Virus record (IMG/VR): IMGVR_UViG_3300026291_000001
Location: 311 to 64,310 of that record
Reading direction: 5' to 3' (one strand)
Source of the DNA: a virus
DNA: 64,000 bases
Below, piece by piece: positions 6,809-56,128 of this stretch. A program made the translations under genes and the position numbers. Under the pieces are notes generated by a model that worked only from the letters and a program-made list of their open reading frames with translations, did not search any database and was not told where the DNA came from. Every line of letters begins with the position of its first letter. The first letter of the stretch is position 1.

Positions 6809-7204
6809 CTATTGGACATGGCTTCCAGCTTCAACGGCACGAGCAAGAACAGAGGATTTACGTCCTTTGACTTGGCTAACAGTGCCTCGACTGGCAGTAC
6901 CGGCGATCCCCGCCGCTATCATACGTTGTGCTTCATTGCGGATGTTTTGTGCAGCATTTATGTCTCTATCGTGTATAGAGCCACACTTATCACACCGCCA
7001 TGAGCGGATTTCTAAAGGCATGTAGGATTGAACATGAAGACAGTTAGAGCAAGCTTTAGAACTCGGAAAGAAGCGATTGACTTCTATGTAGCCCTTTCCT
7101 GCTTGTTCAGCCTTATATTTGAGCATTCCTGTGAATGTTCCCCAACCCACGTCACCAATAGATTTTGCAAGACGGTGGTTTTTCATCATGCCTTTTACAT
7201 GCAA
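6809..7204 (-). pseudogene. tnpB: tnpB C-terminal fragment (zinc finger and RuvC-III)
   Basis: VKGMMKNHRLAKSIGDVGWGTF, FFPSSKACSNC, CDKCGSIHDRDINAAQNI. Confidence 0.9.
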
Positions 7205-8623: not shown

Positions 8624-9625
8624 ATGTTCCTATTCAAACTATTATTGGCTTTAGTGCTACTAATTCCTCCTAACGCTTTTTCAATACCCTTTGCGCCAAC
8701 ATCGATCTGGAACAGGACAATCCCAAGCACGGCGGTCTATACCGATGTGAGCGATGCTTTATGGGGTTCTCCAGAAAATAGCCCGGCGCAAATCTATCTA
8801 GATTTAATCACTATTCTTTATGTCGATCCCCACTTAACGCCTGTCAATATCCGGCTTGATAACAACTGGGACTACCCTTACCGAACCCAGCCTGCTAGTG
8901 GAACGCTGTATCAAAGAAAACTTGGTGCGACCGCTGGCGTTAAAGAAAGCACCACGAATAGCAATGGCATAGTGGTTATTGTAGATCCACTAACAGGCCG
9001 AACTGATGAAGGCGGCGCTATGTTTCGAGATCAAGGCAGTAATGATTTGCTCATCTTTCAAGACAGACCCGCGCTTCATTACAACGTCTTTACGGGAAGT
9101 GGACTCTATGATGGCGTGAGAGGCTCCGGTATGTCTGGATTGGGCGGTGTCATTCGAGCTGGTGAGATCAATACGGTCATTCCTCATGCCATCGCGATCA
9201 TGACGAGTGGTCGCATCTATTCAAAAAACACCTGCTATATCTGGCCTGCGACACGTTGCGACAGTATTGCCAAGGATCCCACTTATGGTTACAAGGGGCC
9301 CAATAATGCCTATACCCTTGGCACTTTACTAGCGATACCTTCATCCATCAATTTAAGTACCATTAAGTTAAAGACCATGCAAGGCTATACTATTGCGATA
9401 GCCGCTCAGAAATATGGCATCTATGTGGTTGACTCCTCAGCAGCGACAGGTAATCGAGTGGGTCTTAGCATGGATTATCAGGCAGCTGTCACCGATTTAG
9501 GACTTGTCCAGGATCCAGTAACTACCTACCAATCCGTAGACGCTAAAAAAATCGATGGCAATGCTTTCCAGGCCGACATAATCGCCATCTTGCATAAGGT
9601 AAAAGCTGTAGTGAATAATAAATAA
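8624..9625 (+). CDS. secreted hypothetical protein (moron)
   Basis: N-terminal signal peptide MFLFKLLLALVLLIPPNAFS; bracketed by terminators. Confidence 0.65.
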   Translation: MFLFKLLLALVLLIPPNAFSIPFAPTSIWNRTIPSTAVYTDVSDALWGSPENSPAQIYLDLITILYVDPHLTPVNIRLDNNWDYPYRTQPASGTLYQRKLGATAGVKESTTNSNGIVVIVDPLTGRTDEGGAMFRDQGSNDLLIFQDRPALHYNVFTGSGLYDGVRGSGMSGLGGVIRAGEINTVIPHAIAIMTSGRIYSKNTCYIWPATRCDSIAKDPTYGYKGPNNAYTLGTLLAIPSSINLSTIKLKTMQGYTIAIAAQKYGIYVVDSSAATGNRVGLSMDYQAAVTDLGLVQDPVTTYQSVDAKKIDGNAFQADIIAILHKVKAVVNNK

Positions 9626-9637: not shown

Positions 9638-9663
9638 CCCCGCTTAACTGCGGGCTTTTTTTT
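9638..9663 (+). terminator. rho-independent terminator
   Basis: CCCGC-ttaact-GCGGG followed by a T-run. Confidence 0.8.
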
Positions 9664-9740: not shown

Positions 9741-9825
9741 AGCGTAGCGAATCTATCCTAAACTCAGCAGTCCCCAGAAGAGCCCATCGCAGTAAAGCGG
9801 AGTATTGCCGAGCCAAGCACAGGCT
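9741..9825 (+). ncRNA. 5-nt periodic (WNY-NN) guide-like tract 1, 17 units
   Basis: AGCGT AGCGA ATCTA TCCTA AACTC AGCAG TCCCC AGAAG AGCCC ATCGC AGTAA AGCGG AGTAT TGCCG AGCCA AGCAC AGGCT. Confidence 0.8.
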
Positions 9826-9872
9826 ACAAAATAGCGTTTAGTCCATTGCAAAGTGGGCTAATCGGTATTCGT

Positions 9873-9952
9873 AGTAAATCCTAGCAGAGTCTTGCCATGC
9901 CGAGCCTTGCGAACCGAATTTCAGCCAAGCAAATCGCTGCGAACCAAAGTCT
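9873..9952 (+). ncRNA. 5-nt periodic tract 2, 16 units
   Basis: AGTAA ATCCT AGCAG AGTCT TGCCA TGCCG AGCCT TGCGA ACCGA ATTTC AGCCA AGCAA ATCGC TGCGA ACCAA AGTCT, then TTTAACC. Confidence 0.8.
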
Positions 9953-9974
9953 TTTAACCAAAAAAGGTATCTAC

Positions 9975-10586
9975 ATGAAACAAATAAGAATAAAACTAAC
10001 CGGAACCTCGCCACTATTGCTATCCAGCGATAAACTAGCCGACCCCCTTAATCCGTTAACGATACGTCATAAAGAACTTACCAGTAAACGCAAGAAAACC
10101 GAGGATGACCATAGATTAATAGCCCGTTCCCAATGGCAAGGGTTGTTATATTGGGATGACAAACTAGGCGTAGTGATGCCGACGCAAAATATCCGTGCGG
10201 CGATGATAGGCGGAGGAAAATTAAACAAGCTGGGCATGGCGCTCAAACGCGGAACATTGATGATGGAAGATCAGGTCCCTGTAGAGTATGGTAAAAAATT
10301 AACGATTGAACAGTTATGGGATGGCGATTATAAAGATGTACGTTCTGTAGTAGTCTCTCAAGCACGGGTCATGGCTTACCGACCAAAATTCCTTAATTGG
10401 TCATTAACTGTCGACTTCCAGTATGATGAAAATGTATTGGATGAAAACCAGATTATGCAATCCCTGGAAAATGCCGGGATGTTTGTGGGTATTGGCGGTT
10501 ACAGACCGGAGAAAGGCGGTGTTTTCGGGAGGTTTAAAGCCGAGAAAGTTGTCGATAAAGTACAAGAAACAAAAATCGCAGCGTAG
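9975..10586 (+). CDS. stand-alone Cas7-like RAMP protein (Vipr-like effector)
   Basis: RAMP motifs: beta1 KQIRIKLTGTSPLLL, VVMPTQNIRAAM, and a C-terminal G-rich loop GIGGYRPEKGGVFGRF; 203 aa; no other class 1 cas genes nearby. Confidence 0.8.
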   Translation: MKQIRIKLTGTSPLLLSSDKLADPLNPLTIRHKELTSKRKKTEDDHRLIARSQWQGLLYWDDKLGVVMPTQNIRAAMIGGGKLNKLGMALKRGTLMMEDQVPVEYGKKLTIEQLWDGDYKDVRSVVVSQARVMAYRPKFLNWSLTVDFQYDENVLDENQIMQSLENAGMFVGIGGYRPEKGGVFGRFKAEKVVDKVQETKIAA

Positions 10587-10633
10587 TTAAGCTCAGCGCA
10601 TCGAAGCTGACATAGCGCATCAAAGCAAAGTTT
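10575..10633 (+). ncRNA. 5-nt periodic tract 3, 12 units (one 4-nt unit), overlapping the RAMP stop codon
   Basis: ATCGC AGCGT AGTTA AGCTC AGCGC ATCGA AGCTG ACAT AGCGC ATCAA AGCAA AGTTT, then TTAAT. Confidence 0.75.
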
Positions 10634-10640
10634 TTAATAA

Positions 10641-10700
10641 TTCGCAGCAGTGTAGTACCCAGCGAATCGGAGCAGATCGAAGTATTGCAGAGCACAGTTT
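10641..10700 (+). ncRNA. 5-nt periodic tract 4, 12 units
   Basis: TTCGC AGCAG TGTAG TACCC AGCGA ATCGG AGCAG ATCGA AGTAT TGCAG AGCAC AGTTT, then TTTAACC. Confidence 0.78.
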
Positions 10701-10721
10701 TTTAACCCAAGGAGCACACTT

Positions 10722-11195
10722 ATGAACCCCACAAACGAAACACCCAATGTAACCCTCGATAAACTGTATATTTTAGCCGCCGAGGAAGCTGCTACTAAAT
10801 ATAATTATGGAGAGGTTATCAGTAAAAACTGGTTGCTGGAAAAGTTCTCAATCGAATTTCCACAACGAGGAACAAAAAAAGACTTTGAAGATGCCAGCTT
10901 TGAGTTTTTACAAAACATGGAAGGCTTTAAAAGCATTATGCTGGAAAAGTTCCAGATGTTTTTATACCCGGTTAAAGGGGTCGGCTATGAGATTGTCTAC
11001 CCTAAATACCAGTCTGATTTAGCAATGATACGCTTAAGGAATACAGTCTCTACCGAGATTAAAAGAGCCATCAATGTACTGACGCATGTTAACGAACAAC
11101 ATTTAACCCAGGACGATATACGGAAAAGGGATGAACACCAGGGAAAGATTGCAGCTCTAGCCGCGTTCTCGAATAAGCGACTTTCTAATAGTTGA
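10722..11195 (+). CDS. accessory protein of the RAMP/periodic-repeat locus, function unknown
   Basis: 157 aa, AGGAG RBS, embedded between tracts 4 and 5. Confidence 0.7.
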   Translation: MNPTNETPNVTLDKLYILAAEEAATKYNYGEVISKNWLLEKFSIEFPQRGTKKDFEDASFEFLQNMEGFKSIMLEKFQMFLYPVKGVGYEIVYPKYQSDLAMIRLRNTVSTEIKRAINVLTHVNEQHLTQDDIRKRDEHQGKIAALAAFSNKRLSNS

Positions 11196-11201
11196 TTTCT
11201 T

Positions 11202-11271
11202 AGCAAAGCAAAGCCAATCGGAGCTGACTAAAGCTGATCGGAGCGGAACCTAGTTGAGCCAAGCACAGGCT
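11202..11271 (+). ncRNA. 5-nt periodic tract 5, 14 units
   Basis: AGCAA AGCAA AGCCA ATCGG AGCTG ACTAA AGCTG ATCGG AGCGG AACCT AGTTG AGCCA AGCAC AGGCT. Confidence 0.8.
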
Positions 11272-11317
11272 ATCAATAGCGTATTGTCCATTGCGAAGTG
11301 GGCAATGCGGTATTATT

Positions 11318-11382
11318 ATCGATGCAATGCCGATCAAAGCCGAGCGGATTAAAGCGATGCACAGTGGAGCAAATCTCATCAC
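11318..11382 (+). ncRNA. 5-nt periodic tract 6, 13 units, interrupted by an IS (last 2 units at 12627-12636)
   Basis: ATCGA TGCAA TGCCG ATCAA AGCCG AGCGG ATTAA AGCGA TGCAC AGTGG AGCAA ATCTC ATCAC | IS | AGCAA AGTTT TTAAC. Confidence 0.78.
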
Positions 11383-12626
11383 CGGTTTTGCTCCAGGTTG
11401 CCCCTTGCTTTAGCTGGGTGAGGAATGGAGTGCTCTTGATTTTTATGTCTTGACATAGTGTTAAAACTCTCTATACTTGAAGATATGAAATTAGTAATAA
11501 ATCTTAAACTTAACCCGGATGTACAGCAGCAACGCGCACTTCAAGATACTCTTGAACGGTGCAATGCAGCTTGTAATTGGCTGTCTGAGGTTGCCTATAA
11601 AGAAAATACTATTAAACAATTTGCCCTCCAAAAATTAACATACCGGCAATGCCGTGAAGATTATGGTTTGACAGCTCAGGCCGCAATCCGTTGTATTTCT
11701 AAAGTTGCCGATGCCTACAAGCTTAAGGATGCCGATAAGACCCAGAGAAATTTCAGGAAGTGGTCGGCACAACCTTACGACGACCGTATCTTCCGGTTCG
11801 GCAAAGGCGACACCGTAAATTTGTGGACTATTGCTGGAAGGCAAACTATCCCGTTTGAGTGCGGTGAATACCAACGTAAGCTTATCCCTTACCGCAAAGG
11901 CGAAGTTGACTTGATGTTTATCAAAGCCAAATGGTATGCGTCTTGTGTTATTGATGTTGACGATGCCGAACCGTTTGCGCCAACTGGCGGCGTGTTGGGT
12001 GTTGATTTGGGTATTGTCCAGATTGCTTCCGATTCTGATGGAGAACAGTTTTCCGGAGACAAAATTGAAGTCGTGCGTAAGAGATACCATACACTCAGGC
12101 AACAGCTTCAAAAGAAAGGCACTAAATCGGCAAAGCGGCATTTGAAGCGCATTGCCAAAAACGAAGCTAATTTTCGTAGCGAAACCAACCACGTAATTTC
12201 TAAAAAACTTGTTGAGAAGGCTAAAGGCACTTTTCGCAGCATCAACCTTGAAGAACTCAAAGGCATACGCGAAAGGATTACGGTTAGGAAAAATCAACGG
12301 GCTAAACAAAGTGGATGGGCGTTCTATCAACTTCAGCAATACATTGCCTATAAATCCAAGCTTTGTGGCGTGACGGTCAATTTTGTTGACCCTCGCTACA
12401 CAAGCCAAAGCTGTAGCGTTTGTGGTCATACCGCAAAAGCCAACCGCAAAAGCCAAGCTGTTTTTGTTTGCAAAAGTTGTAACCATAATCAAAATGCCGA
12501 CATCAATGCGGCAAAAAATATAAGTTTAAGGGCGGCTGTCAATCCGCCTATCGTAGCTACCGATGACCCACATGGATTGTGGCGAGGTAAGTTACAAGCT
12601 CCGTCATTCATGACGGTGTAGTTGAC
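11383..12626 (+). mobile_element. IS200/IS605-family (IS1341-like, tnpB only) element
   Basis: Left end CGGTTTTGCTCC...CCCCTTGCTTTAGCTGGG after TCAC; right end CAAGCTCCGTCATTCATGACGGTGTAGTTGAC; no target duplication. Confidence 0.8.
11485..12621 (+). CDS. tnpB: TnpB RNA-guided endonuclease
   Basis: RuvC D-E-D intact (GVDLG, LEELKGIR, NADINAAKNI) plus a CxxC...CxxC zinc finger. Confidence 0.93.
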   Translation: MKLVINLKLNPDVQQQRALQDTLERCNAACNWLSEVAYKENTIKQFALQKLTYRQCREDYGLTAQAAIRCISKVADAYKLKDADKTQRNFRKWSAQPYDDRIFRFGKGDTVNLWTIAGRQTIPFECGEYQRKLIPYRKGEVDLMFIKAKWYASCVIDVDDAEPFAPTGGVLGVDLGIVQIASDSDGEQFSGDKIEVVRKRYHTLRQQLQKKGTKSAKRHLKRIAKNEANFRSETNHVISKKLVEKAKGTFRSINLEELKGIRERITVRKNQRAKQSGWAFYQLQQYIAYKSKLCGVTVNFVDPRYTSQSCSVCGHTAKANRKSQAVFVCKSCNHNQNADINAAKNISLRAAVNPPIVATDDPHGLWRGKLQAPSFMTV

Positions 12627-12711
12627 AGCAAAGTTTTTAACTAAAAATCTTATTTTTCGCAAAAATTAAGAGTATAGTCTAACTTAATCCCTCCCGCTGA
12701 TAAGAAGCGTT

Positions 12712-24071: not shown

Positions 24072-27000
24072 ATGGCCGCAAATCCTTACCGGACAGCCTT
24101 CGAAGCTATTAAGCCCGGCTCTTATGCCGATAGTGTGGAGTCTGGCGCACCGGAACCCGCAGCTAATAATAATCCGTATGAAAAAGCCTTTACGGAGATA
24201 CGCAATGCACCCAAGCCTGCCGGTACGCTGCGTCAACTGGGTACTCAACTAGGCGCGGGCGCTGTGGTTGATCTTCCAAGAATGGTGGGTCAGGCAGCGC
24301 AAGCTTTTAGCACAGAAGGCTCACCTACTACCAGGTTAGGTAAATCATTAGTGGCAGGCGCGGAGCAACGCGCTCCTAATTGGGAACCTGATTTAAGCGA
24401 TAAGAATGAAGTTCAAAAAGCTTTAATTACAGGAAGCCGATCCATAGCGCCTAGTTTGGCTACAGTAGGCGCTTATGCAGTTCCGTTTGCAGGGCCGGTA
24501 TTAGGGCCTGCTGCAACGATAGGTTTATATGGTGGCAGTCAATATCAGGACACTTATGAGAAAGCCAAACTGGCAGGAAACACCGACGAACAAGCCCATT
24601 TAGCGGGACTTGGCACCGGCGCTATTCAAGGTGGCGGAGAAGCTTTAGCTAATAAGATAACGCTAGGCTTATTCGGTGCCGGAAAAAATGTTGCCAAAGC
24701 AGGCATACAAGGTTTAACGGATACCTCAGTCATTAAACCCTTTGCTAAAAGCTTAGGGGTAGCCGCCATAGGCGAACCTGCTACGGAAGTAGGCCAGGAT
24801 ATAGGCACTGCGTTAGTAGAAAGAAATCAAGGTATACCTACTGGGCCTTTAAGCGATATAGCTTATCAATCAAGTACGGCGGCTTTAGGCATGACTGCCT
24901 TGTTTGCTCCATTTGGACTGGGAGGTCATGCAAATAATGCCAGACAAGTTCAAAACCGGAATAACGTCTTAACTGATACCACGAAAGCTCCTGAAGAACG
25001 TGTTAATGCAGCTAATGCCTTACACGCTCAAGCTAAACAGCTTGGCATAGCCGATGCCGATTTATGGCATAGTCAGGCAATGGACAGTATTAGTGCCGGA
25101 TTACCCGTTAGTTTATCTAACCCTGTTATAGCACAAGGCCCGCTCACTAGAGCCGCCAACAGCAACCCAGACTCAGTAGCAGCAGCGGCGGCACAGATCC
25201 AATCCACTAACCTTGCGCAAGCTGAAACAGACCGTGTAGCGCAAGAGCAAGCGGCAGCCAAGCAGGCCGACGACGCCAATAAGCAAGTTATCGCAGAGGC
25301 AAAAGCCAAAGAAACTGCGGCTAAGGCCGAACAAATAAAAGCTCAACAACAAAAACAACCAGGAGCAGACATTGGAACACCTGACACTAGCGGCCTTAGA
25401 GCAGATAATCAATCAGCAGTCAGACGCGTTACACCGGCTAGAGCACCAAGTTCAGGACTTGGAACTCAAGCTACAGGCATTAATACACCAGCACCTGACC
25501 TTACCGGAACAGCAACGGTTAGCGATGCATCGGAGGACATTAACTTAACACCCGCGCAAGCGGCCCTTAAACAAACGGAGAAACAAGATGTCGAAAGGCA
25601 AAAAAATACCACCGAAACCACCGAAACCCTGCTGAAAACTGAAGCGCCCGATAACAAGGGCGCTGAACCCTTCCCAGCAACCCACATAATGAGTGATGGA
25701 AATAAGGCTATCATTCAAAAGGATGGTTCTTTTAACGATATTAATGGCGATAATTGGACTGATCCTTATGCTGAAAAAATTAAACCCACTACCGAGACAA
25801 AAGCGAATGTCCCTGCACCAGCAAATCCGAAAATTGCACCAATCGAATCAGAAAAATCAGGAGCAGGTAAGACTGCATCCGGAATTATACAGACTAGCAA
25901 AGAAGCATCAGCCGAGCCTGTGGGAACGGATAAAGGAGTGGTTACGGGACTGACCGAAGATTCTTATACAAAAATAGATAATGAAAATATAAGAATAGAT
26001 GATGAAAATAGATGGGGAAAGCCAAAACTAAAAGAACACTTGGATAATGGTAATTTGCCCATTATTGATAAGCGTGATGAAGGTGGTATAAGAACTTATG
26101 AAGCAAAAGGTACTGGTAATCCGCTCCCTAAATGGAACGTGAGATTAACATTAACACCTGAAGAAAAAAAGGCAGCACAGAGAGCAGAAGCAGATTACGA
26201 GCTTGCTGAATCAGCAGAAGAAAAACAAAGCGCAAAAGATAATCTTGAAAAAATATTACTTAATGCCTCAAAACGAGCAGTACAAGAAACGGAAAGTTTG
26301 GCAAACCAAACAGAGGTAAAAACCAGTGAACAAGTCAAAAAAGAAGCGCCTGCGCAAGCTGTTCAAACGCCTAGTACCACTGAGGGATTAGATAATGCGA
26401 GAAATCTTGTTGCGAAAATAAGAGAGTCTCTTGCGCGTCCAGGTTCGGCAGGCATGTTAACAACACCAGCTGAATTAAAGAAAGTAGCGACGGATTTAGG
26501 TGTTTATAGCAAAGCCCATAAACCTATTCAGGTATTAGAAGCAGTCGAGGCCAAGTTAGCCGAAGTACAACAACCCACGCAGCCAGTGCCCAAGGCCGAA
26601 GCACAGGCTACCGTAGAAACACCAGCAGCACCTCAGACCCAACAAGAACAAATGAAGGCCAAGCTTGCGCAACAACGCCAATCCGAGCCTGATGTAACCC
26701 AAATCAGCAAAACGCATACGAAGATAAACAGCAGGGCGCAAGTCGAGCTAATTAATACCGGAACTGGACAATCCGTATTTCCAGGCAAGACATTCAAAAC
26801 ACCAACGGAAGCTAATCAGTTTTTCAAGGCGGCCAAGCAGACGCAATTATTGGCAGCAGGAAACACGCAGCCTACGGAAGCCAAGGCCGAGCCGGTTAAA
26901 TCCGAATTACAATTAAATAAGACTGGAAAGATAGAATCATTAGCGGATTTGATCAGTATTGCTCTATCAAGAAAAGACGGCAATAAGGCTTTCTCAGAAC

Positions 27001-30000
27001 TTGGTAAAGTAATGCCTGAAATAGCTAAAAAAGTACAACAAGCAACAGGAATTAATGTTGATGGATGGAGCCATGGTATAGATGAAGCGGCCATCAGGCA
27101 TATTATTAAAGAACATGGTAATGCGTTAGTTGAGTCTGCACGCGGTCAAATTGCAGTAACGCCTGAAGATATTAGTAATATAAAGGAAATAATACAAAAT
27201 CCTGATACGGTAGAAAAGGGCTATCCTATGCCTGATGGAACTGAAACCGTTATTTACAAAAAAATAATAGATGGCCAGTCTATTTATGTGCAGGAAATTA
27301 GAGAAGGAAGGGAAAAATTAACAGCAAAAACGTTGTGGAAAGTCCGCACTGTGCCGCCTGCTACAGAAAAAACTGGCTTGGTGCATACGTCCGAAACGTC
27401 CAGCGCGCGACCCCCACAACTGGATTCAAGTATAACGCAGCCATCAGAAAAGGCAACAAACACTAAAGAAGACAAGCCGAAAACACAGCCAAAATCGCCC
27501 AGTACCAAGACAGAAGCGCATTATTTTAGCCATTTAAGAGATAATGGATTTACTGCTTCCGAAATACAGGAGATTCAAGAAGCCGGTAAAACTAGGAAAG
27601 ATTTAACGGGCTGGGCGCGTGGACGCTTTGGCTATGACCGGATTAAAGGCGTTGATTTTAATGCGTTGCAACCAAGCAAGGCTGAACAGACAAAGACAGA
27701 AACGCCCGTAAAATCCGAACCCGTTAAGGCCGAGCAGTTGGTTAAGGCCGAGCAGCCGGTTAAGGTTGAGGCCAAGCCAGCCCAGGACAAGCCGGTTGAG
27801 ACTGATAAAAAAGGCACGGCGCTTTACAGCAAGGCCCAAACGCCTGCCAATGGAAGCACGATACAGCAAGTTAAGGGCTGGCTGTCAGGCATGAAGAAGC
27901 TGCAAGGCTTGATAGCAGCTGGACAATTAAGAGTCGTTAGCAATATCAATCAGCTACCCGACTCAGAAGCGCAGGGAGCAGGGGCAGAAGCCATCTATAA
28001 CCAGCGTACCAATACGATTACTTTATTTGCGGATAATATCAACGATAGCAATAGGGAATCGGTTTTATTTCATGAACTCATGCACATGGCCGAGGCTACC
28101 GATCCCAAGCTAAAGAAAGCCCTTGAACAGTTCGAGGGCGACTTACAGCGACGTTTTGACTTAGCCTTGAAAGGACTGGGTAGCAAGATTGAAAACGCAG
28201 CAGCAGCGCGAGTTATAAAAGCTGATACGCCACTTGCAGATCAACAAAGCGAGTTCAGAAGTTACATAATAAGTGAATATCTCAAAAAACCTGAATCCTT
28301 CACCGGCAAGCTTCTTAAAGCCATTAAAGACATCTTTGCGGCTATCAGGATTGCCCTGGTCAGGTCTGGTTTAGACTTTGGCATGGTTAGGAAACTGTCC
28401 GATGCAGACCTCTATGCAATGAGCAAGTACGGTACTCAGGTGAAAACCAATTCGGTGACAGCACCGCAATGGATAGGACAGGCGGCACTGGCAAGTAGCC
28501 AAGCCAGTAGGTTCTATTCCCAACTTCACAGAGCCTTGATAACCGCCCCCGATAAGATATTCGGCAATGCCGCCCAGGTTAAGTTGTGGCTAAACAGCAA
28601 TGCGCCTAAGTTGGGAATCAAGGGAGATGAGATTTACTGGAGTGGGATTAACGATTTTCTTGATATCAAAGCCGCCAACAAGGAGAAAGTCACCAAGGCG
28701 GATATGGATGCCTTTATGCGCGAGTCTGGAACGGTTAAGGTTGAGGATGTGATGTTGGGTGAAAATACAAATAAAAAACCTATAAAAACAATCAAATCAG
28801 ATGGGGACGTATGGACTGTTGAATTTAATGATGGGGAAATAAAAGAATTTTCAGCTTATTTAGCAGATGATAAGCAAGAAGCTGAAGCCTACGCCAGAAA
28901 AGGCAAATTAGACACCAAACACGGCGGCGGTACCCTGGTCATCCCTGGTGGTAGGGATTACAAGGAGTTGGTGATTACCATACCTACCATCGACAAATTC
29001 AATGAGAGCGACAAAACTCATTTCGGCGATGTTTCTCATGGAAAAGCTGTGGCCTGGGTCAGAATGGACACCAGAACCGACGCAAATGGCAAGGACACGC
29101 TGTTTCTTCAGGAAGTGCAATCACAGCGATCTCAAAGGGGTCGTAAAGATGGCTTCTCATATCTGGCGGATAAATGGCAGGCAGAATTTCAAACCGGCGA
29201 TGTGGCTTATTTCAACAACGAAGCCGATGCCAAAAAAGCTGAAAAACAAGGTGCTAAGGTAACACGGGTTACTGTTCCTGGCGTACCTCCAGCGCCATTC
29301 GTGACGGACGCAAATAATAAGGCCACGAACGCCTACATAGCCCTAACACTCAAGAAGGCCATCAGCCATGCGGTAGACAACGGGCAGCACAGTGTGAGCT
29401 GGACAACGGGGAATCAACAAAGTGAACGCTATAATTTGAGTAAGCAGATAAATTCAGTTTCATATAGAGGTGGGGATTATCAAGAACTCACGTATAACCT
29501 TATTGATAATAGTGGTACAAAAACACTAGAAAATGTACCAGAAAATAAAATTGCTGATTATATAGGCAAAGAAGTGGCAGAAAAACTGTTGCAACAACCT
29601 GTAGAGTTTAATGGTTTTAAAATATTAAAAGGACTTGATCTTGATATAAAACCAGCATGGGTATCCAGCATGTATGGCGATGAAAACGGCATGAATAAGG
29701 ACGGAAAACCCGCGATGATAACCCAGGCCGCAATGGAGATTGCCCGGAAAATGGGCGGGGAAGTGGGGAGTGTTAGTATTCCGGGACAATCAGATTATCA
29801 AGAAATTTTAGATATGCTAAATGACTTTGATAGTTTTCCAGAAGGCAGCAAAGGTAGGAGAGAGCTTGAATTAAAACTGCCAAAAACATACGACGATAGA
29901 GCTAAATTATCTGGCAAACAACCCGCCCTAATCATAACCGATTCTATGGCCGCAAAAATCCGCGCAGAGGGTATGCCCCTGTTTTCCAAAACTGGCGGCT

Positions 30001-33000
30001 TGGAGGCTAGCCGCGAGAATCTGCCCGCTACCCTAAATATCAACGGTAAAAAACGATCCACTACCAACAGCAACGGTGCGCCGATAGCGCAGACTGAGGA
30101 AGCGATTAGGAACTTCTACGCATGGTTTAAGGATTCAAAGGTGGTAGACGATCAGGGTAGGCCATTAGTCGTGTACCACGGAACTAATAACGATTTTAAT
30201 GAATTTGATGTCAGTAATGAACTGGGAGCGCACTTTGGGAGTACAGGGCAAGCAGGCAGTTTTGCTAAGACAAAGGGGCTTATCATTCCTGCATATATTA
30301 AGATGGATAATCCTTTAAGGCTTGTTGACAACGGTAGCTTCAATGCAAACGATATAATAGGCGAATTAATTGATACGGGTGTTATATCTCAGCAAGCAGG
30401 AGAAAACATACTTAGAAATGATGATCCTATGGCTACAGATTTGACAAAAAAACTCATAAAAAAATCAGGGTTTGACGGTATTGTATATTTAAACAGGAGA
30501 GAAGGACTGGTTGCTATTCTGGATGAAGATGAGGATTTTGAAGTAGATGCTACTGATAACGAATTTAAAGGAAAATATCCTAATGCTAAAGACTCATATA
30601 TTGCTTTTGAATCCAACCAAATAAAATCCGCCACGGGTAATTCCGGTGCGTTTAGCACCACGAACAACGACATCCGGTTTAGCGTTAGGGCGGCAACAGA
30701 AAACACCGAACCCCATATACCACAAGTCGATACCTGGCTCAGTAAATGGCTAAACCATACTAACCTGGACACGGCTATCTATAACCTGCAAGACCGTTAT
30801 ATTGATTTGTACCGGCAAATGCAGAAGATCACCAAAGAGGGCGGCGTGATTACCGAGTCTGAAAATGCACGGATGGGCGAAGAAGTTAGTCACCAGCGTA
30901 TTCAAAGCCGTATTAAAGAGTTTTACGATACCCAATTTAACCCGATCCTGGAAGAACTTCACGATAACAAGTTAGATATGGATGCCTTTCAAAAGGTTCT
31001 GCAAGCCCGTCATGCACCGAGCCGTAATGAAGTCATGGCCGAGCGCAACCCTAATCAAGAGATTATTGATGAAAAACTGGCCGATGCTGAACAGGCATTA
31101 GAGGATGCAGTCTCCAATAAAGAGAAACAGCAAGCGTCTACAGAAATAGCCAAGTGGAGCCGTGCGAAACCGTTTAGAGGTACTGAGGAAGAACGCTTAT
31201 CCTTATCAGGCATGACCGACGAACAAGCACAAACTACCCTGGATAATTTAACGCCAGAACAAAAGCGGGTCATGTTGCCATTGGCCGACAAAATCGACGC
31301 CATTAATAATGACACGCTGGATTTGATGGTGGCTTATGGCATGGAAACACCGGAATCCATTCAGGCATTAAAAGACCAGTGGGAGCACTATGTCCCTCTG
31401 CATCGTGACGAGGCGCACCCGGATGATGCTAATTTTGGTCATCCGATAGGTCGTGGGTACAGTATCCGAGGAACGGGTATAAAAACCGCAACTGGCTCCA
31501 ATGCCGAAGTGACCAACATCATGGCGCACATTGCCGCAGCGCGAGAACAAATGCTCAGACGTGGCGAGAAAAATAAGGTAACTGTGCAACTGGCCGATTT
31601 TATCACTAACCACCCAGACTCCACGTTCGCTGTTACCAAACCCTTACCGACTAAAGATTATTTGGTGAATGGCTTGGTTGAAACTTTACCGGACCCTACC
31701 TTTAAGGATAAAAACAATATTGTTATTTACCGGCTGAACGGCAAAGACAAGGCGCTTATCTTTAATGAATATGTACCGGAAAATGTGCGCCTTGCCATGT
31801 CGCTTAAAAATATGAACGGCATTGAACTGGATAAAGTGGAATCACTAATAGCAAAAGGTACTCGATGGCTTGCGAGCGTAAACACACAATTTAACGTCGT
31901 TTTTGGTTTGATGAACGTGACCCGTGATGTACAAGGCGCGATGTTAAACTTGACCAGTACGCCACTGGCTGGAAAACAACGCGCGGTTTTCTCAAAAATG
32001 GGCGACAGCATTAAAATTATTGCGGGTGTTGAAAGAGGATGGGCTAATACCGATCCTGCCTTAAAAGCGATGTATGAGCGTTTTAACAAAGCGGGTGGTA
32101 CCACGGCGTATAGCCAAATGTTTGAGGGTATCAAAGACCGTGACCATGCTATCCGTAATGAATTGAAGAAATTGAAGGAAGGGAAAGCTATGCACATGGG
32201 CCGTGCAGTCGTTAAAGCCTTGTCCGATTTTAATACCGTGATGGAAAATAGCACACGGCTATCCGTGTTTATGACAGCGGTTGAATCAGGTTTAAGCGAT
32301 ATGCACGCGGCCAGTTTAGCCAAGAACATCACCGTTAACTTTAACCGGAAAGGCGCTTACACCACTAAAGTAGGTTCACTCTATGCCTTTTTTAATGCCT
32401 CGATGCAGGGCAGCTTTCGCATGGCGGAAACCCTAAAGGGTCCTGCGGGTAAACAAATCCTGATAGGCGGCGTGGGACTGGGCGCAGCGTTAACCATTCT
32501 GGGTATTGCCGCCATGGGCGCGGATGACTGGGACAAAATACCGGAGTTTATCAAGGAGCGCAGTTTGATTATTCCGGCACCGTGGAACAGTTCCGGGTAT
32601 ATTGCTATACCGATGCCTCTCGGTTTTCATATCCTTCCCACGCTCGGAAGAGTTCTTGTTGAATCGCTTATTGGTAGCAATAGAATTACCAATCAACATA
32701 GATTTATGAATTTGATTGGTGCGACCACTGGCGCATTCAACCCGCTAGGCGGCAGTGACATTAGCACTTTAGTGATGCCGACTGTATTGGACCCGGCGCT
32801 GGCTCTTTGGAGAAATAAAGATTGGACAAACAAGACGGTTTATCTTGAAGATTTTAACTCGCTTGATCCTACGCCGGGTTATCTTCGCACCAAGAATACG
32901 GCGTCTGCGCCTTCCAAATGGGCGGCAGAAGCAGCGAATACTTTAACTGGAGGTACCTCTTACAAACCTGGATTATGGAGTCCTACGCCCGATCAGCTTG

Positions 33001-33407
33001 ATTATGTCATGGGTCAACTTACCGGAGGAACTGGCAGGGAACTCTTGAAAGCTCAAGAGGCTGTTGCCAGTATCGGTTCAGATGAAGAACTCCCCACCTA
33101 TAAAATACCCTTAATCGGTAGGTTATACGGAACTGTCACAGGTGACGCGGAAGAACGTACGGCTTATTATGAAAATGTTAAAGCATTGAATGAGGAAAAC
33201 AATGAGGTTCAGGGCTTGTTGAAAGAGGAAAACGGCAGAGTGAAGGCCAACGAATACCTAAGAAATAATCCACTGGCACGAGTCTATAACCGGGCGCATG
33301 TTTATCAGAAAATGATTGATAAGCTTAAGAAACGCCCTGGTTCGGAACAGCGTATAATGGATTTAATGAAGCGGCAAAATACGTTAGTGTCTCAGGCACA
33401 GAAATAG
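24072..33407 (+). CDS. giant polyvalent virion/ejection protein (3111 aa)
   Basis: PBECR-like nuclease region (AIRHIIKEHG...EIIQNPD), zincin metallopeptidase HELMH, ART-like WFKDSKVVD.QGRPLVVYHGT, LPD38-like C-terminus (YIAIPMPLGF, DPALALWRNKDW). Confidence 0.8.
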   Translation: MAANPYRTAFEAIKPGSYADSVESGAPEPAANNNPYEKAFTEIRNAPKPAGTLRQLGTQLGAGAVVDLPRMVGQAAQAFSTEGSPTTRLGKSLVAGAEQRAPNWEPDLSDKNEVQKALITGSRSIAPSLATVGAYAVPFAGPVLGPAATIGLYGGSQYQDTYEKAKLAGNTDEQAHLAGLGTGAIQGGGEALANKITLGLFGAGKNVAKAGIQGLTDTSVIKPFAKSLGVAAIGEPATEVGQDIGTALVERNQGIPTGPLSDIAYQSSTAALGMTALFAPFGLGGHANNARQVQNRNNVLTDTTKAPEERVNAANALHAQAKQLGIADADLWHSQAMDSISAGLPVSLSNPVIAQGPLTRAANSNPDSVAAAAAQIQSTNLAQAETDRVAQEQAAAKQADDANKQVIAEAKAKETAAKAEQIKAQQQKQPGADIGTPDTSGLRADNQSAVRRVTPARAPSSGLGTQATGINTPAPDLTGTATVSDASEDINLTPAQAALKQTEKQDVERQKNTTETTETLLKTEAPDNKGAEPFPATHIMSDGNKAIIQKDGSFNDINGDNWTDPYAEKIKPTTETKANVPAPANPKIAPIESEKSGAGKTASGIIQTSKEASAEPVGTDKGVVTGLTEDSYTKIDNENIRIDDENRWGKPKLKEHLDNGNLPIIDKRDEGGIRTYEAKGTGNPLPKWNVRLTLTPEEKKAAQRAEADYELAESAEEKQSAKDNLEKILLNASKRAVQETESLANQTEVKTSEQVKKEAPAQAVQTPSTTEGLDNARNLVAKIRESLARPGSAGMLTTPAELKKVATDLGVYSKAHKPIQVLEAVEAKLAEVQQPTQPVPKAEAQATVETPAAPQTQQEQMKAKLAQQRQSEPDVTQISKTHTKINSRAQVELINTGTGQSVFPGKTFKTPTEANQFFKAAKQTQLLAAGNTQPTEAKAEPVKSELQLNKTGKIESLADLISIALSRKDGNKAFSELGKVMPEIAKKVQQATGINVDGWSHGIDEAAIRHIIKEHGNALVESARGQIAVTPEDISNIKEIIQNPDTVEKGYPMPDGTETVIYKKIIDGQSIYVQEIREGREKLTAKTLWKVRTVPPATEKTGLVHTSETSSARPPQLDSSITQPSEKATNTKEDKPKTQPKSPSTKTEAHYFSHLRDNGFTASEIQEIQEAGKTRKDLTGWARGRFGYDRIKGVDFNALQPSKAEQTKTETPVKSEPVKAEQLVKAEQPVKVEAKPAQDKPVETDKKGTALYSKAQTPANGSTIQQVKGWLSGMKKLQGLIAAGQLRVVSNINQLPDSEAQGAGAEAIYNQRTNTITLFADNINDSNRESVLFHELMHMAEATDPKLKKALEQFEGDLQRRFDLALKGLGSKIENAAAARVIKADTPLADQQSEFRSYIISEYLKKPESFTGKLLKAIKDIFAAIRIALVRSGLDFGMVRKLSDADLYAMSKYGTQVKTNSVTAPQWIGQAALASSQASRFYSQLHRALITAPDKIFGNAAQVKLWLNSNAPKLGIKGDEIYWSGINDFLDIKAANKEKVTKADMDAFMRESGTVKVEDVMLGENTNKKPIKTIKSDGDVWTVEFNDGEIKEFSAYLADDKQEAEAYARKGKLDTKHGGGTLVIPGGRDYKELVITIPTIDKFNESDKTHFGDVSHGKAVAWVRMDTRTDANGKDTLFLQEVQSQRSQRGRKDGFSYLADKWQAEFQTGDVAYFNNEADAKKAEKQGAKVTRVTVPGVPPAPFVTDANNKATNAYIALTLKKAISHAVDNGQHSVSWTTGNQQSERYNLSKQINSVSYRGGDYQELTYNLIDNSGTKTLENVPENKIADYIGKEVAEKLLQQPVEFNGFKILKGLDLDIKPAWVSSMYGDENGMNKDGKPAMITQAAMEIARKMGGEVGSVSIPGQSDYQEILDMLNDFDSFPEGSKGRRELELKLPKTYDDRAKLSGKQPALIITDSMAAKIRAEGMPLFSKTGGLEASRENLPATLNINGKKRSTTNSNGAPIAQTEEAIRNFYAWFKDSKVVDDQGRPLVVYHGTNNDFNEFDVSNELGAHFGSTGQAGSFAKTKGLIIPAYIKMDNPLRLVDNGSFNANDIIGELIDTGVISQQAGENILRNDDPMATDLTKKLIKKSGFDGIVYLNRREGLVAILDEDEDFEVDATDNEFKGKYPNAKDSYIAFESNQIKSATGNSGAFSTTNNDIRFSVRAATENTEPHIPQVDTWLSKWLNHTNLDTAIYNLQDRYIDLYRQMQKITKEGGVITESENARMGEEVSHQRIQSRIKEFYDTQFNPILEELHDNKLDMDAFQKVLQARHAPSRNEVMAERNPNQEIIDEKLADAEQALEDAVSNKEKQQASTEIAKWSRAKPFRGTEEERLSLSGMTDEQAQTTLDNLTPEQKRVMLPLADKIDAINNDTLDLMVAYGMETPESIQALKDQWEHYVPLHRDEAHPDDANFGHPIGRGYSIRGTGIKTATGSNAEVTNIMAHIAAAREQMLRRGEKNKVTVQLADFITNHPDSTFAVTKPLPTKDYLVNGLVETLPDPTFKDKNNIVIYRLNGKDKALIFNEYVPENVRLAMSLKNMNGIELDKVESLIAKGTRWLASVNTQFNVVFGLMNVTRDVQGAMLNLTSTPLAGKQRAVFSKMGDSIKIIAGVERGWANTDPALKAMYERFNKAGGTTAYSQMFEGIKDRDHAIRNELKKLKEGKAMHMGRAVVKALSDFNTVMENSTRLSVFMTAVESGLSDMHAASLAKNITVNFNRKGAYTTKVGSLYAFFNASMQGSFRMAETLKGPAGKQILIGGVGLGAALTILGIAAMGADDWDKIPEFIKERSLIIPAPWNSSGYIAIPMPLGFHILPTLGRVLVESLIGSNRITNQHRFMNLIGATTGAFNPLGGSDISTLVMPTVLDPALALWRNKDWTNKTVYLEDFNSLDPTPGYLRTKNTASAPSKWAAEAANTLTGGTSYKPGLWSPTPDQLDYVMGQLTGGTGRELLKAQEAVASIGSDEELPTYKIPLIGRLYGTVTGDAEERTAYYENVKALNEENNEVQGLLKEENGRVKANEYLRNNPLARVYNRAHVYQKMIDKLKKRPGSEQRIMDLMKRQNTLVSQAQK

Positions 33408-34689: not shown

Positions 34690-34724
34690 TTTTTTCTCCT
34701 GAATTTCAATTGAATCTAGTATAG

Positions 34725-34760
34725 TTCAAGCAGCCTGCATACTGGCTTGGTAAGTATGAC
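34725..34760 (+). CRISPR. solitary Cas12m-type repeat
   Basis: AGCCTG CATACT GGCTTGGTA AGTATG AC (core 34732-34760), perfect 6-bp stem, same architecture as the repeats after cas12m. Confidence 0.8.
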
Positions 34761-34913
34761 GGGTTTCATTTTTTTCTTTAACGCGAGAATTTCATTTTTT
34801 CTTTTTAATAAATTACTATAATGTATATGTGGCAATAGGGGGATACCCCGAAAACTCCTTCAGTAAGAGCTGTGCCACTAACCTTAAACTGAAAACTTAA
34901 CTGGAGTTTTATT

Positions 34914-35087: not shown

Positions 35088-35413
35088 ACGCCACTGCCTT
35101 CGACACGCACGAATTTGTTAAGAAATTAAAAGGCGTAGGCTTCAGTGAGGAACAAGCCGAAGTCTTAACCGAACTGCAAAAAACCACCGTAGTCAACACA
35201 CTGGAACAGGCTCGGCATGATTACGAGCTGGATAATCTGGCTACCAAAAGGGATTTAAAAGAATTTGAACTGACGGTTAGTCTGCAATTTAAACAAGTTG
35301 ATGTAAAGATAGCCGAAACTAAAGCCGAATTAATCCGTTGGGTGGTAGCTGTTGGTTTATTACAGACAGTGATTATTACCGGCTTGATTTTGCGCTTGAC
35401 GGGGAAAATTTGA
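35084..35413 (+). CDS. DUF1640/CCDC90-like membrane-anchored coiled-coil protein (paralog 1 of 3)
   Basis: AFDTHEFVKKLKGVGFSEEQAE...LATKRDL...C-terminal TM. Confidence 0.85.
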   Translation: MNATAFDTHEFVKKLKGVGFSEEQAEVLTELQKTTVVNTLEQARHDYELDNLATKRDLKEFELTVSLQFKQVDVKIAETKAELIRWVVAVGLLQTVIITGLILRLTGKI

Positions 35414-37308: not shown

Positions 37309-37311
37309 TGG

Positions 37312-37413
37312 TAAAAATAGCCTGCACAGTGGCTTGGTGACTGTGACGGCAAGTAATATAACTTACCTTATGGATGGTAATAACAGCCTGCACAGTGGCA
37401 TGGTAATTGTGAC
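37312..37413 (+). CRISPR. mini CRISPR array 1 (2 repeats, 1 spacer)
   Basis: Cores 37319-37347 AGCCTGCACAGTGGCTTGGTGACTGTGAC and 37385-37413 AGCCTGCACAGTGGCATGGTAATTGTGAC; 37 nt between cores. Confidence 0.88.
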
Positions 37414-37435
37414 GTATGTACATCGGCATAAACCC

Positions 37436-44703: not shown

Positions 44704-45798
44704 ATGAACATTCAAATTAAAACCTTAAAAGTTAGAATCCGCGATAAACATGCAGATGTTTTGAATCGCATGTCTTTTGAAGTCAATCAAGTCTGGAATG
44801 CAGCCAATGAAACGTCTGCTGAGTTCGCTTGGGTTCCAGTGCCTGAAGTTGGCTATATGAATATGCAGACATCCGGTTTTGACTTAATGAAGGAGCTGAA
44901 AGGAATCCGCAAAGAACGAAGTATGATTATCAGTGCTAGAACTGTTCAGGAAGTAATAGCCGTCCACGCCAAGACCCGCAAACAATTCAAGAAAGACAAA
45001 CTAAGGTGGAGGTCTTCAGGTGGAGCAAGACGCGCTTTAGGATGGGTTCCTTTCAAGTCTGGATCGGCTTGTTGGATAAATGGTCAAGTCAGGTTCTGCG
45101 GTATCTATTTCAAGTGTTGGGATAGCTACGGCTTAAGCCAATACGATTTTAGAAGCGGCTGCTTCTCTGAAGATAGTCGAGGCCGCTGGTATTTCAATAT
45201 CGTAGTGCATGTCGAGGAAGAAGTCAGGCTATCAGAAGGTGGTCAGATAGGCATTGATTTAGGACTTAAGACAACGGCAACCTGTAGCAATGGCGTAGTA
45301 TTGGAACGTAAACAGTTTTATCGTAATTTAGAAGAAAAACTAGGCAAGGCACAGCGAGCTAATAAGAAGAAACTGGTTAAAACGATACATGCAAAAATTA
45401 AGAACCAACGGCTTGATGCGAATCATAAATTTAGCCGTAAAATAGTAAATGAAAACAGTTTAATAGTAGTTGGCAATGTAAGCAGTTCAGGTCTGGCAAA
45501 AACCAAGATGGCTAAGTCCGTTCTTGATGCAGGCTGGTTCATGCTAAAAACGATGATTGATTATAAATCGAAAGCGATGCAATCAGCGTTCATAGAAGTC
45601 AATGAAGCATACACTACTCAAGCGTGTTCGTGCTGTGGCTGTATAAGCTCCAGTAGTCCGAAAGGTAGACGCGATCTTGATGTAAGAGAATGGACTTGTG
45701 CCGAGTGTGGCACCGAGCATGATAGAGATATTAATGCGGCTAAGAATATTCTCTCTCTGGGACATCAGAGACTAGCAGTAGGAATCCTCTCCCTTTAG
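44704..45798 (+). CDS. tnpB: TnpB with apparently rearranged RuvC-II
   Basis: GIDLGLK, IVVGNV (no canonical E), VNEAYTTQACSCC, HDRDINAAKNI; right end GGAATCCTCTCCCTTTAGAGAGAGGAGGATGTCAA at 45781-45815. Confidence 0.9.
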   Translation: MNIQIKTLKVRIRDKHADVLNRMSFEVNQVWNAANETSAEFAWVPVPEVGYMNMQTSGFDLMKELKGIRKERSMIISARTVQEVIAVHAKTRKQFKKDKLRWRSSGGARRALGWVPFKSGSACWINGQVRFCGIYFKCWDSYGLSQYDFRSGCFSEDSRGRWYFNIVVHVEEEVRLSEGGQIGIDLGLKTTATCSNGVVLERKQFYRNLEEKLGKAQRANKKKLVKTIHAKIKNQRLDANHKFSRKIVNENSLIVVGNVSSSGLAKTKMAKSVLDAGWFMLKTMIDYKSKAMQSAFIEVNEAYTTQACSCCGCISSSSPKGRRDLDVREWTCAECGTEHDRDINAAKNILSLGHQRLAVGILSL

Positions 45799-51418: not shown

Positions 51419-51420
51419 TT

Positions 51421-51677: not shown

Positions 51678-51715
51678 TATTTATTCCCCCTGCCGTGAGG
51701 CACAGGAGTTACACC

Positions 51716-56113: not shown

Positions 56114-56128
56114 ATCAGTAGCCCATTA

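What the first reader, a model, noticed from the sequence alone, without database searches (positions are those of the whole stretch)
9741..12640. VIPR-like system: lone Cas7/RAMP gene interleaved with six 5-nt-periodic guide tracts
Seen: six tracts of 12-17 units (about 86 units in total) with strict 5-nt phase. Each unit is a constrained triplet (first base always A/T, third base pyrimidine in all but about four units, AGC most common) plus a freely varying dinucleotide. The tracts flank a 203-aa protein with RAMP motifs (TGTSPLLL, PTQNIRAAM, GIGGYRPEKGGVFGRF) and a 157-aa partner. There are no cas1/2/3/5/6/8/10 genes and no conventional repeat-spacer array. Established: Cas7 RAMPs polymerise along guide RNA with a fixed nucleotide step. 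As I recall (not verified here), phage VIPR systems use a Cas7-ancestral protein and RNAs of alternating GGY/NN in which the NN pairs specify a gapped DNA target. Inference: this is a phage-encoded RNA-guided system with six guides, one protein subunit per 5-nt unit, probably acting against competing phages or host genes.
Basis: partly seen in the sequence, partly recalled or inferred. Interest (0 to 1): 0.93.

Follow-up and report, generated by a model that had tools for sequence, protein, structure and literature searches.

The report
Phage VIPR locus with AGY-type guides
This is a genuine phage VIPR system, a recently described RNA-guided DNA-silencing system built on a Cas7-like protein; it is a new member that uses AGY rather than GGY repeat units, and a TnpB insertion element has split one of its six guide genes.

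Summary
Window 9741-12640 carries six + strand tracts of 5-nt units (83-85 units). Position 1 is A/T in 83/83 units and position 3 is C/T in 80/83. The two NN positions are unbiased. A motif-free scan finds this periodicity nowhere else in the 64.9-kb phage genome.

The 203-aa protein matches the solved SUSP1 Vipr structure (PDB 36pp, E=3e-40) and its model has a Cas7/Csm3-like fold. The 157-aa partner is a Vap1 homologue. There are no other cas genes and no CRISPR array.

VIPR was published in 2026, so this is a new member of a known kind, closest to type II. Three things are new here:
- The scaffold triplet is AGY/WNY, shared by a monophyletic Vipr clade in which both residues that read the first G in SUSP1 and P. 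fulva (H17, D175/177) are replaced (S/A17, G175).
- Only two tracts carry the long structured 3' tail, which covariation supports. Four end in a short AGTYTTTTAA motif.

No natural target was found, and the host is unknown; weak hints point to Methylobacter.

The parts
9741..9825 (+). vrRNA tract T1: 16 W-N-Y/NN units. The last two units (ca, ac) and the following AGG.ct are constant and belong to the tail junction.
9816..9878 (+). Long structured 3' tail of T1: a small stem followed by a 12-bp hairpin.
   Evidence: Covariance model hit of 67 bits. Covariation. Fold z-score -6.0.
9873..9960 (+). vrRNA tract T2: 16 units ending in the short motif AGTCTTTTAAC (9948-9958), 16 nt before the vipr ATG.
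9975..10586 (+). vipr, 203 aa, the Cas7-like RAMP that would polymerise on vrRNA. Residues 195-203 are a low-confidence extension read from tract T3.
10575..10640 (+). vrRNA tract T3: 7 + 4 units with a 4-nt unit (ACAT) at 10610-10613. It overlaps the vipr stop codon and ends in AGTTTTTAATAA.
10641..10706 (+). vrRNA tract T4: 12 units ending in AGTTTTTTAAC, 15 nt before the vap ATG.
10722..11195 (+). vap1-like accessory gene, 157 aa (phrog_5926).
11202..11271 (+). vrRNA tract T5: 13 units plus AGG.ct.
11262..11317 (+). Long structured 3' tail of T5.
   Evidence: Covariance model hit of 60 bits. Terminator-like hairpin at 11280-11309. Fold z-score -5.3.
11318..11382 (+). vrRNA tract T6, 5' part (13 units), cut off by the IS.
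11383..12626 (+). TnpB-only IS200/IS605-type element: tnpB at 11458-12621 with its own promoter-like site at 11450-11477. The boundaries are inferred from where the W-N-Y frame stops and resumes.
12627..12641 (+). Severed 3' end of T6 (AGC.aa AGT.tt TTAAC). The same end is found uninterrupted in the 90%-identical relative L002.

Best explanation
This is a phage-borne VIPR system, closest to the characterised type II systems (vipr + vap1).

Proposed mechanism: the + strand between about 9.7 and 11.4 kb is transcribed into vrRNAs of 9-17 pentamer units. One Vipr protomer binds each unit. The W-G-Y triplet is flipped out and held between neighbouring protomers. The exposed NN dinucleotides pair with double-stranded DNA that matches an NNx pattern (one base skipped per unit), forming an R-loop that blocks transcription. 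Vap1 assists.

Shown here:
- Homology of Vipr and Vap.
- The repeat anatomy.
- A structured tail under selection.
- Hypervariable NN positions beside a conserved scaffold.
- A clade-wide coupling between loss of the two residues that read the first G (H17 to S/A, D175 to G) and a first-base change from G to A/T.

Inferred by homology: transcription, filament formation, the 1-nt skip rule and silencing.

Five guides look intact. The sixth is interrupted by a TnpB IS and is probably inactive or truncated.
For: Protein:
- phmmer hit to PDB 36pp SUSP1 Vipr, E=3e-40.
- 41-47% identity to Vipr genes of Felixounaviruses and Pseudomonas phages.
- AF2 model with pLDDT 93, whose best PDB fold matches are Csm3, type VII Cas7 and Cmr4.
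- DNA/RNA-contact residues K33, R39, K82, R136 and R177 are conserved.

RNA:
- 83 units with W 83/83 at position 1, Y 80/83 at position 3, and unbiased NN.
- The periodicity is unique to this locus in the genome.
- Guide tracts are unstructured (z about 0), whereas tails are stable (z -6.0 and -5.3).
- Tail helices are 93.7% paired, with 10 pairs showing compensatory changes; 0/500 shuffles reach this.
- The tail model also finds tails in L073 and in LESphi2, which were not used to build it.

Comparative:
- The five distinct relatives with 55-90% identical Vipr carry AGC/NN tracts on the vipr strand.
- Against the 90%-identical locus L002, the tail is 46/52 identical but the NN positions of T1 match at only 8/34.
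- All 23 clade members have S/A/V/C17 + G175, and all 24 outgroup homologues have H/N/Q + D/E/T.
- One branch separates the two groups, with support 100/98.
- The four H/N + D loci inspected carry GGY/NN.

Accessory gene and context:
- Vap homology: E=7e-15 to the SUSP1-like gene and 9e-24 to the LESphi2 gene.
- There is no self-target in the phage genome, as the VIPR paper reports for its systems.
Against: - There is no expression, binding or silencing data for this locus or for any member of the AGY clade.
- No natural target was identified in any search made here.
- The canonical GGY triplet is absent, and in this phage and L002 the triplet is loose (G at position 2 in only about 65-70% of units).
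- Four of six tracts lack the structured tail that caps characterised vrRNAs.
- T3 has a phase slip and T6 is split by the IS.
- No convincing promoter was found upstream of T1.
Confidence: 0.88

Rival explanations
1. The locus is a decaying or only partly functional VIPR remnant. Vipr may still be made, but most tracts are relics that no longer yield working guides.
For: - T6 is split by a 1.24-kb IS.
- T3 has a 4-nt unit.
- Only 2 of 6 tracts keep the structured tail.
- Triplets are far looser than in L004 and L005, where A and G at positions 1-2 reach 93-100%.
Against: - Position 1 is W in 83/83 units and position 3 is Y in 80/83, although NN has turned over completely relative to the 90%-identical L002. 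Drift would erode the frame as fast as the NN positions.
- vipr and vap are intact, with all contact residues conserved.
- L002 shares the loose triplets and the short ends at the same three positions, so these are lineage traits rather than damage.
Confidence: 0.1
2. The tracts work mainly as RNA or DNA elements other than DNA-targeting guides. They could target RNA, act as decoys or sponges that titrate Vipr, or act as cis-regulators of vipr/vap translation, since T2 and T4 end 15-16 nt before the start codons.
For: - T2 and T4 abut the ribosome-binding sites.
- SUSP1 Vipr-vrRNA can pair with RNA targets in vitro.
- Decoy vrRNAs exist in satellites.
Against: - In the characterised systems, silencing needs dsDNA and the triplex, and RNA targets give incomplete filaments.
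- The non-target-strand clamp residues K82 and R39 are conserved here.
Confidence: 0.05
3. The pentanucleotide periodicity is a simple-sequence repeat or a chance feature unrelated to the RAMP gene.
For: Short windows (10 units with at least 9 W.Y) occur by chance about 3 times per 64 kb.
Against: - Runs of 13-17 perfect units are expected fewer than 4e-3 times.
- Six such runs cluster around vipr, and the periodicity is found nowhere else.
- The same architecture recurs next to every Vipr homologue inspected.
Confidence: 0.01

Closest known systems
Type II VIPR of Escherichia phage SUSP1 (Vipr structure PDB 36pp; bioRxiv 10.64898/2026.04.26.720920 and .720927)
   Same: - About 200-aa Vipr, 41% identical, E=3e-40.
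- vipr-vap1 gene pair.
- Phage-borne.
- Several vrRNAs of 9-17 pentamers on the vipr strand, both upstream and downstream.
- Conserved K33, R39, K82, thumb Arg and G-loop Arg.
   Different: - The scaffold triplet here is AGY/WNY, not GGY.
- H17 and D177, which read G1, are S17 and G175 here.
- The tail here is a two-stem hairpin element, not the SUSP1 pseudoknot, and the tail model does not hit the SUSP1-like phage Andreotti.
- Two vrRNAs lie between vipr and vap.
Pseudomonas-type type II VIPR (P. fulva prophage; phage LESphi2 locus L007)
   Same: - Closest characterised clade: 46.6% identity with the same residue numbering (R136, Y176, R177).
- G-loop ending RPEKGG.
- Homologous tail architecture: the tail model hits LESphi2 tails at E about 1e-5.
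- Vap 29% identical, E=9e-24.
   Different: - The Pseudomonas type keeps H17/D175 and uses GGC/NN.
- Natural targets (resident prophage regulators) are known there. None are known here.
Non-canonical VIPR arrays (YNNNG, NNNGG and NNNNG repeats in the discovery paper; GAC, CAC, WGT and TGH /NN clusters in bioRxiv 10.64898/2026.10.21.760802)
   Same: 5-nt repeats with a non-GGY fixed triplet next to a Vipr-fold gene. A-G-Y/NN fits the published 'YNNNG' class.
   Different: The text of those papers available here gives no protein basis for the altered triplet. Whether this exact AGC clade is among their clusters could not be checked, because the figures and tables are not held.
Class 1 CRISPR backbone subunits (Csm3/Cas7 of type III-A, type VII Cas7, Cmr4)
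   Same: RAMP fold. These are the best PDB fold matches (Foldseek prob 1.0, TM 0.38-0.51). One subunit binds per fixed step along a guide RNA, with base flipping by a thumb.
   Different: Here there is no repeat-spacer array, no adaptation or other effector genes, a 5-nt step instead of 6-nt, and a guide read as gapped dinucleotides.

Membership tests
VIPR (Vipr + vrRNA) | Vipr protein homologous to the experimentally characterised Vipr | tested here: met
   PDB 36pp_D 'SUSP1 Vipr protein', E=3e-40 over residues 1-190. phrog_4652, E=1e-56.
VIPR (Vipr + vrRNA) | RAMP fold with a glycine-rich loop | tested here: met
   AF2 model with pLDDT 93.1. Top 50 PDB matches are almost all Csm3, Cas7 or Cmr4. 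G-loop GIGGYRPEKGG, with G172 and R177 invariant in 47 homologues.
VIPR (Vipr + vrRNA) | Tandem 5-nt units of a fixed trinucleotide plus variable NN, on the vipr strand, flanking vipr | tested here: met
VIPR (Vipr + vrRNA) | Canonical GGY trinucleotide and the residues that read its first G (H17, D175/177) | tested here: not met
   Position 1 is A/T in 83/83 units, with S17 and G175 in place of H and D. The published definition admits 'a related consensus', including YNNNG, so this does not exclude membership.
VIPR (Vipr + vrRNA) | Invariant structured 3' tail after the repeat tract | tested here: inconclusive
   Met for T1 and T5. T2, T3, T4 and T6 end in a short AGTYTTTTAA motif with no predicted structure.
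VIPR (Vipr + vrRNA) | Adjacent vap accessory gene (vap1 in type II) | tested here: met
   The 157-aa ORF aligns with the gene downstream of vipr in all relatives. E=7e-15 to the SUSP1-like gene and 9e-24 to the LESphi2 gene.
VIPR (Vipr + vrRNA) | Minimal locus with no other cas genes and no CRISPR array | tested here: met
   PADLOC and Pfam scans of 54 ORFs give only TnpB/Cas12-like hits. No repeat-spacer array was found.
VIPR (Vipr + vrRNA) | vrRNAs are expressed and co-purify with Vipr | not testable with these tools
   Needs sRNA-seq and a pull-down.
VIPR (Vipr + vrRNA) | NN positions specify dsDNA targets by the 1-nt skip rule, with natural targets in competing mobile elements | tested here: inconclusive
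   No self-target. No hit in relatives' loci. Six IMG/VR scans and one metagenome scan gave only chance-level matches.
Class 1 CRISPR-Cas | Repeat-spacer array and cas1/cas2 or other effector subunits | tested here: not met
IS200/IS605-family TnpB element (insert in tract 6) | TnpB with OrfB_IS605 and Cas12f1-like TNB domains | tested here: met
   PF07282 E=2.8e-22 and PF01385 E=4.8e-09. phrog_506.
IS200/IS605-family TnpB element (insert in tract 6) | Defined left and right ends, insertion without target duplication, and an omega-RNA at the 3' end | tested here: inconclusive
   Ends are inferred from the interrupted W-N-Y frame and from the uninterrupted end in L002. No second copy was found in IMG/VR. 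There is only a sub-threshold Rfam HgcC match at 12528-12641. No tnpA was seen.

The most novel reading that the evidence does not exclude
The AGY clade may be a natural specificity switch of the VIPR scaffold. Replacing the two G1-reading residues (H17 to S/A, D175 to G) would retune Vipr to load A/U-first repeats. Its vrRNAs would then be orthogonal to those of GGY-type systems. This could let a phage escape hijacking by the solo or decoy vrRNAs that satellites and rival phages use against GGY-type Vipr, and it would give a second, independent scaffold for programmable tools.
Probability: 0.3. Interest if true: 0.62.

Novelty: new member of a known kind. Interest (0 to 1): 0.45.

Why it matters
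VIPR is a months-old class of RNA-guided DNA recognition, and only GGY-scaffold members have been characterised. This locus, with its roughly 23-member clade, offers three things:
- A natural experiment in how the protein reads its scaffold. Two known contact residues and the first repeat base change together along a single branch of the tree.
- A directly testable prediction: S17H/G175D swaps should exchange AGY and GGY preference.
- Evidence that vrRNA genes can sit between vipr and vap, can carry a minimal 3' end, and can be knocked out by another RNA-guided mobile element (TnpB).

It does not change the concept of VIPR.

Tried and rejected
Target searches:
- Own genome, skip 0, 1 or 2: best matches equal the shuffled-guide controls.
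- Guides of four relatives against this phage: none, with one marginal match of 20/26.
- Our guides against eleven VIPR loci: none.
- IMG/VR pattern scans: T1 units 1-9 and 6-14 gave 0 hits. T2 units 4-11, T5 units 3-10, T6 units 3-10 and T4 units 1-8 gave 7-29 hits each, and all fell to chance level on extension.
- Metagenome scan with T1 units 3-11: 14 hits, about the number expected by chance. One gene family reaches 24/28 informative bases (11 perfect units in a row). The site lies in an outer-membrane beta-barrel gene with the skipped base at the wobble position. I rejected it as unproven because the extension probability of about 0.02, times about 8 independent families, gives about 0.15, and the contigs are 61-64% GC against 44% for the phage.

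Host identification:
- TnpB relatives in genomes are at most 44% identical and taxonomically scattered.
- The portal protein is about 45% identical to portals of many Gammaproteobacteria phages.
- There are no tRNAs.

Other:
- Rfam: nothing above threshold and no hammerhead.
- The short end motif AGTYTTTTAAY is not enriched genome-wide.
- A search for a second IS copy to fix the left end found none.
- No near-identical phage exists in the phage collection.
Full report
**What is there**

The window is almost the whole of a 64,913-bp single-contig virus record. It is 44% GC. It encodes a P22-like portal, terminase, an N4-gp56-type major capsid protein, tail genes and an integrase.

The upstream tail-protein gene (8624-9625) is followed by a terminator-like hairpin at 9639-9654. 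The next structural gene starts at 12712. Between them, everything lies on the + strand in this order:
- tract T1 and its tail
- tract T2
- a 203-aa ORF (9975-10586)
- tracts T3 and T4
- a 157-aa ORF (10722-11195)
- tract T5 and its tail
- tract T6
- a 387-aa TnpB gene (11458-12621)
- 15 further bases of tract

**The observation**

Read in 5-nt register, 83 units have the following composition:
- A/T at position 1 in 83/83 units.
- G at position 2 in 58 units (T 17, C 5, A 3).
- C/T at position 3 in 80/83 units.
- Essentially no bias at positions 4 and 5 (0.03 and 0.05 bits).
- AGC is the commonest triplet (33 units).

Windows of ten units can arise by chance about three times per 64 kb. Perfect runs of 13-17 units cannot (expectation 4e-3 to 2e-5). 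A motif-free test asked for at least 2 of 5 columns to be constant in 7 of 8 successive pentamers. Over the whole genome, on both strands, it lights up only this locus.

- T3 has 9-11 units with one 4-nt unit, and it begins inside the end of the 203-aa ORF. The last ten residues of that protein are read from the tract and are disordered in the model.
- The register restarts after each tail.
- The sixth tract is split by an insertion element.

**The proteins**

The 203-aa protein has no Pfam family. It matches the solved chain 36pp_D, 'SUSP1 Vipr protein', at E=3e-40 over residues 1-190. It also matches phrog_4652. Unannotated genes in 133 phage records are 41-47% identical to it; most are Felixounaviruses, plus Pseudomonas phages LESphi2 and Medea1.

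An AlphaFold2 model built on 47 homologues has pLDDT 93. Its best PDB fold matches are Csm3, type VII Cas7 and Cmr4.

The 157-aa protein (phrog_5926) aligns end to end with the gene that follows vipr in every relative. This includes the SUSP1-like phage Andreotti (E=7e-15) and LESphi2 (E=9e-24). It is therefore a Vap1 homologue.

Among 54 ORFs there is no Cas1/2/3/5/6/8/10. The only 'Cas' hits are Cas12-like models that match TnpB genes. There is no repeat-spacer array.

**Literature**

VIPR systems were described in 2026.
- Vipr is an early-branching RAMP found mostly in phages. vrRNAs consist of 9-16 GGY/NN units followed by a structured tail. Targets are dsDNA read by the NN positions with one skipped base per unit. 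Binding silences transcription of competing satellites and prophages. Seven types are defined, and SUSP1 and P. fulva are type II with vap1.
- Cryo-EM shows one protomer per unit. G1 is read by H17 and D177 in SUSP1 (H17 and D175 in P. fulva). G2 is held by the thumb Arg and a G-loop aromatic residue. Y3 sits in a pocket that includes the G-loop Arg. K33, R39 and K82 contact DNA.
- Alternative repeats have already been reported: YNNNG, NNNGG and NNNNG, and GAC, CAC, WGT and TGH /NN.

**Relatives and the scaffold switch**

A search of 5.8 billion proteins gave 169 homologues. I fetched loci for seven of them.

Loci whose Vipr is 55-90% identical all carry AGC/NN tracts on the vipr strand, with position 1 being A in 59-100% of units. 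These are L002/L003, L001/L004, L005, L006 and L073. Loci with more distant Vipr carry GGY/NN, with G at position 1 in 70-100% of units. These are LESphi2, Andreotti, L074 and L075.

In a 47-sequence alignment, all 23 members of the near clade have S/A/V/C at the H17 position and G at the D175 position. All 24 others have H/N/Q and D/E/T. R136, R177, K33, R39 and K82 stay conserved throughout.

A maximum-likelihood tree places the 23 on one side of a single branch (support 100/98, one change suffices). With midpoint rooting they are nested among the H/D forms.

So the two residues known to read the first guanine are lost in exactly the clade whose repeats start with A/T. The correlation is shown. 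That it is causal is an inference.

**Evidence that the tracts are guide RNAs under selection**

- Twelve tails from six loci align to a small stem plus a 12-bp hairpin. 93.7% of cells are paired, ten pairs show compensatory changes, and 0 of 500 shuffles reach any measure. All slid controls collapse.
- A covariance model built from these tails finds exactly two tails in the window (9816-9878 and 11262-11317). It also finds tails it was not trained on in L073, and more weakly in LESphi2. It finds none in SUSP1-like Andreotti.
- The tails fold far better than shuffles (z -6.0 and -5.3). The guide tracts do not (z +0.3 and -0.9).
- Against L002, whose Vipr is 90% identical, the tail is 46/52 identical. 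The NN positions of T1 match at 8/34, which is chance level. The W-N-Y frame is kept.

**Peculiarities**

- Only T1 and T5 have the long tail. T2, T3, T4 and T6 end in AGC.aa AGT.yt TTTAA(C). T2 and T4 stop 15-16 nt before the vipr and vap start codons. L002 has the same short ends at the same three places. Whether these are true 3' ends, processing sites or promoter-proximal elements is unknown.
- Triplets in this phage and in L002 are looser than in L004 and L005. No explanation is offered for this.

**The IS**

The W-N-Y frame of T6 stops after 11382 and resumes at 12627 with the standard tract end. That end is uninterrupted in L002.

The 1,244 bp in between carry an intact tnpB with OrfB_IS605 and TNB domains. 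It has a near-consensus promoter-like site and ends only 5 nt after its stop codon. This fits a TnpB-only IS200/IS605-type element inserted without target duplication. The boundaries are inferred, not proven, because no second copy was found.

**Targets and host**

- No self-target was found, and no cross-targeting with relatives.
- Six IMG/VR scans and one metagenome scan gave only chance-level matches. The best is 24/28 informative bases in an outer-membrane protein gene of a 62% GC bacterium. I do not consider it significant.
- Host hints are weak. The nearest named relatives of both Vipr (56% identical) and the capsid protein (75% identical) come from Methylobacter assemblies.

**Verdict**

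This is a new member of a known (2026) kind. The AGY scaffold with its matching protein substitutions is the most useful new point.

Noticed in passing
window 11458-12621 (+), 54714-55835 (-), 44704-45795 (+), 6812-7204 (-), 35338-37308 (+): Five ORFs of this 65-kb phage match the TnpB/Cas12f-like TNB domain. Two are full-length TnpB genes that are 33% identical to each other, one is more distant, one is a fragment, and one is a 656-aa protein with only a C-terminal TNB match. This is an unusually heavy load of TnpB elements for a phage.
   Followed up: partly
window 56124-56291 and 58990-59072 (+ orientation); 34722-34761, 37309-37348 and 37375-37414 (inverted orientation): A family of nine 33-40-nt elements with an internal inverted repeat (core GTCACA...TGTGCAGGC) occurs in both orientations. 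Three copies flank the 656-aa TnpB-like ORF. They could be IS ends or regulatory hairpins.
   Followed up: no
window 24072-33407 (+): A 3,111-aa 'polyvalent' protein with PBECR3 nuclease, ART-PolyVal ADP-ribosyltransferase and LPD38 domains.
   Followed up: partly
window 51415-51516 and 51537-51685: Two arrays of short tandem repeats lie just upstream of the portal gene: four 24-28-nt units and five 22-nt AT-rich units. They look like iterons or packaging sites.
   Followed up: no
window 12528-12641 (+): A sub-threshold Rfam match to HgcC (19.7 bits, E=0.17) covers the 3' end of tnpB and the first 15 nt of the severed vrRNA end, where an omega-RNA and its guide would lie. If so, the guide of this TnpB would be the conserved vrRNA end AGCAAAGTTTTTAAC, which also closes T3 after a similar ATCAA context.
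   Followed up: no
window 10557-10586: Vipr here and in L002 is about ten residues longer than in most relatives (193 aa). The extension (ending KIAA) is translated from the first units of tract T3 and is disordered in the model.
   Followed up: yes
L112:4029-4637 (also L111, L116, L118, L120): The T1 guide, read as codon positions 1-2 on the opposite strand, spells R-I/M-P-F/L-A-G-L-G-L-D/E-Y-Y-S-T. A small outer-membrane beta-barrel protein of a 62% GC activated-sludge bacterium contains LIPFAGLGLDYYF at 24/28 informative bases. This is probably chance, but it passes the published 80% threshold.
   Followed up: partly
window, whole (ORFs not located individually): Pfam hits among the ORFs include phage integrase, HicB and BrnA antitoxins, a type IV pilin-like protein and a GH108 endolysin. 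The phage may therefore be temperate.
   Followed up: no
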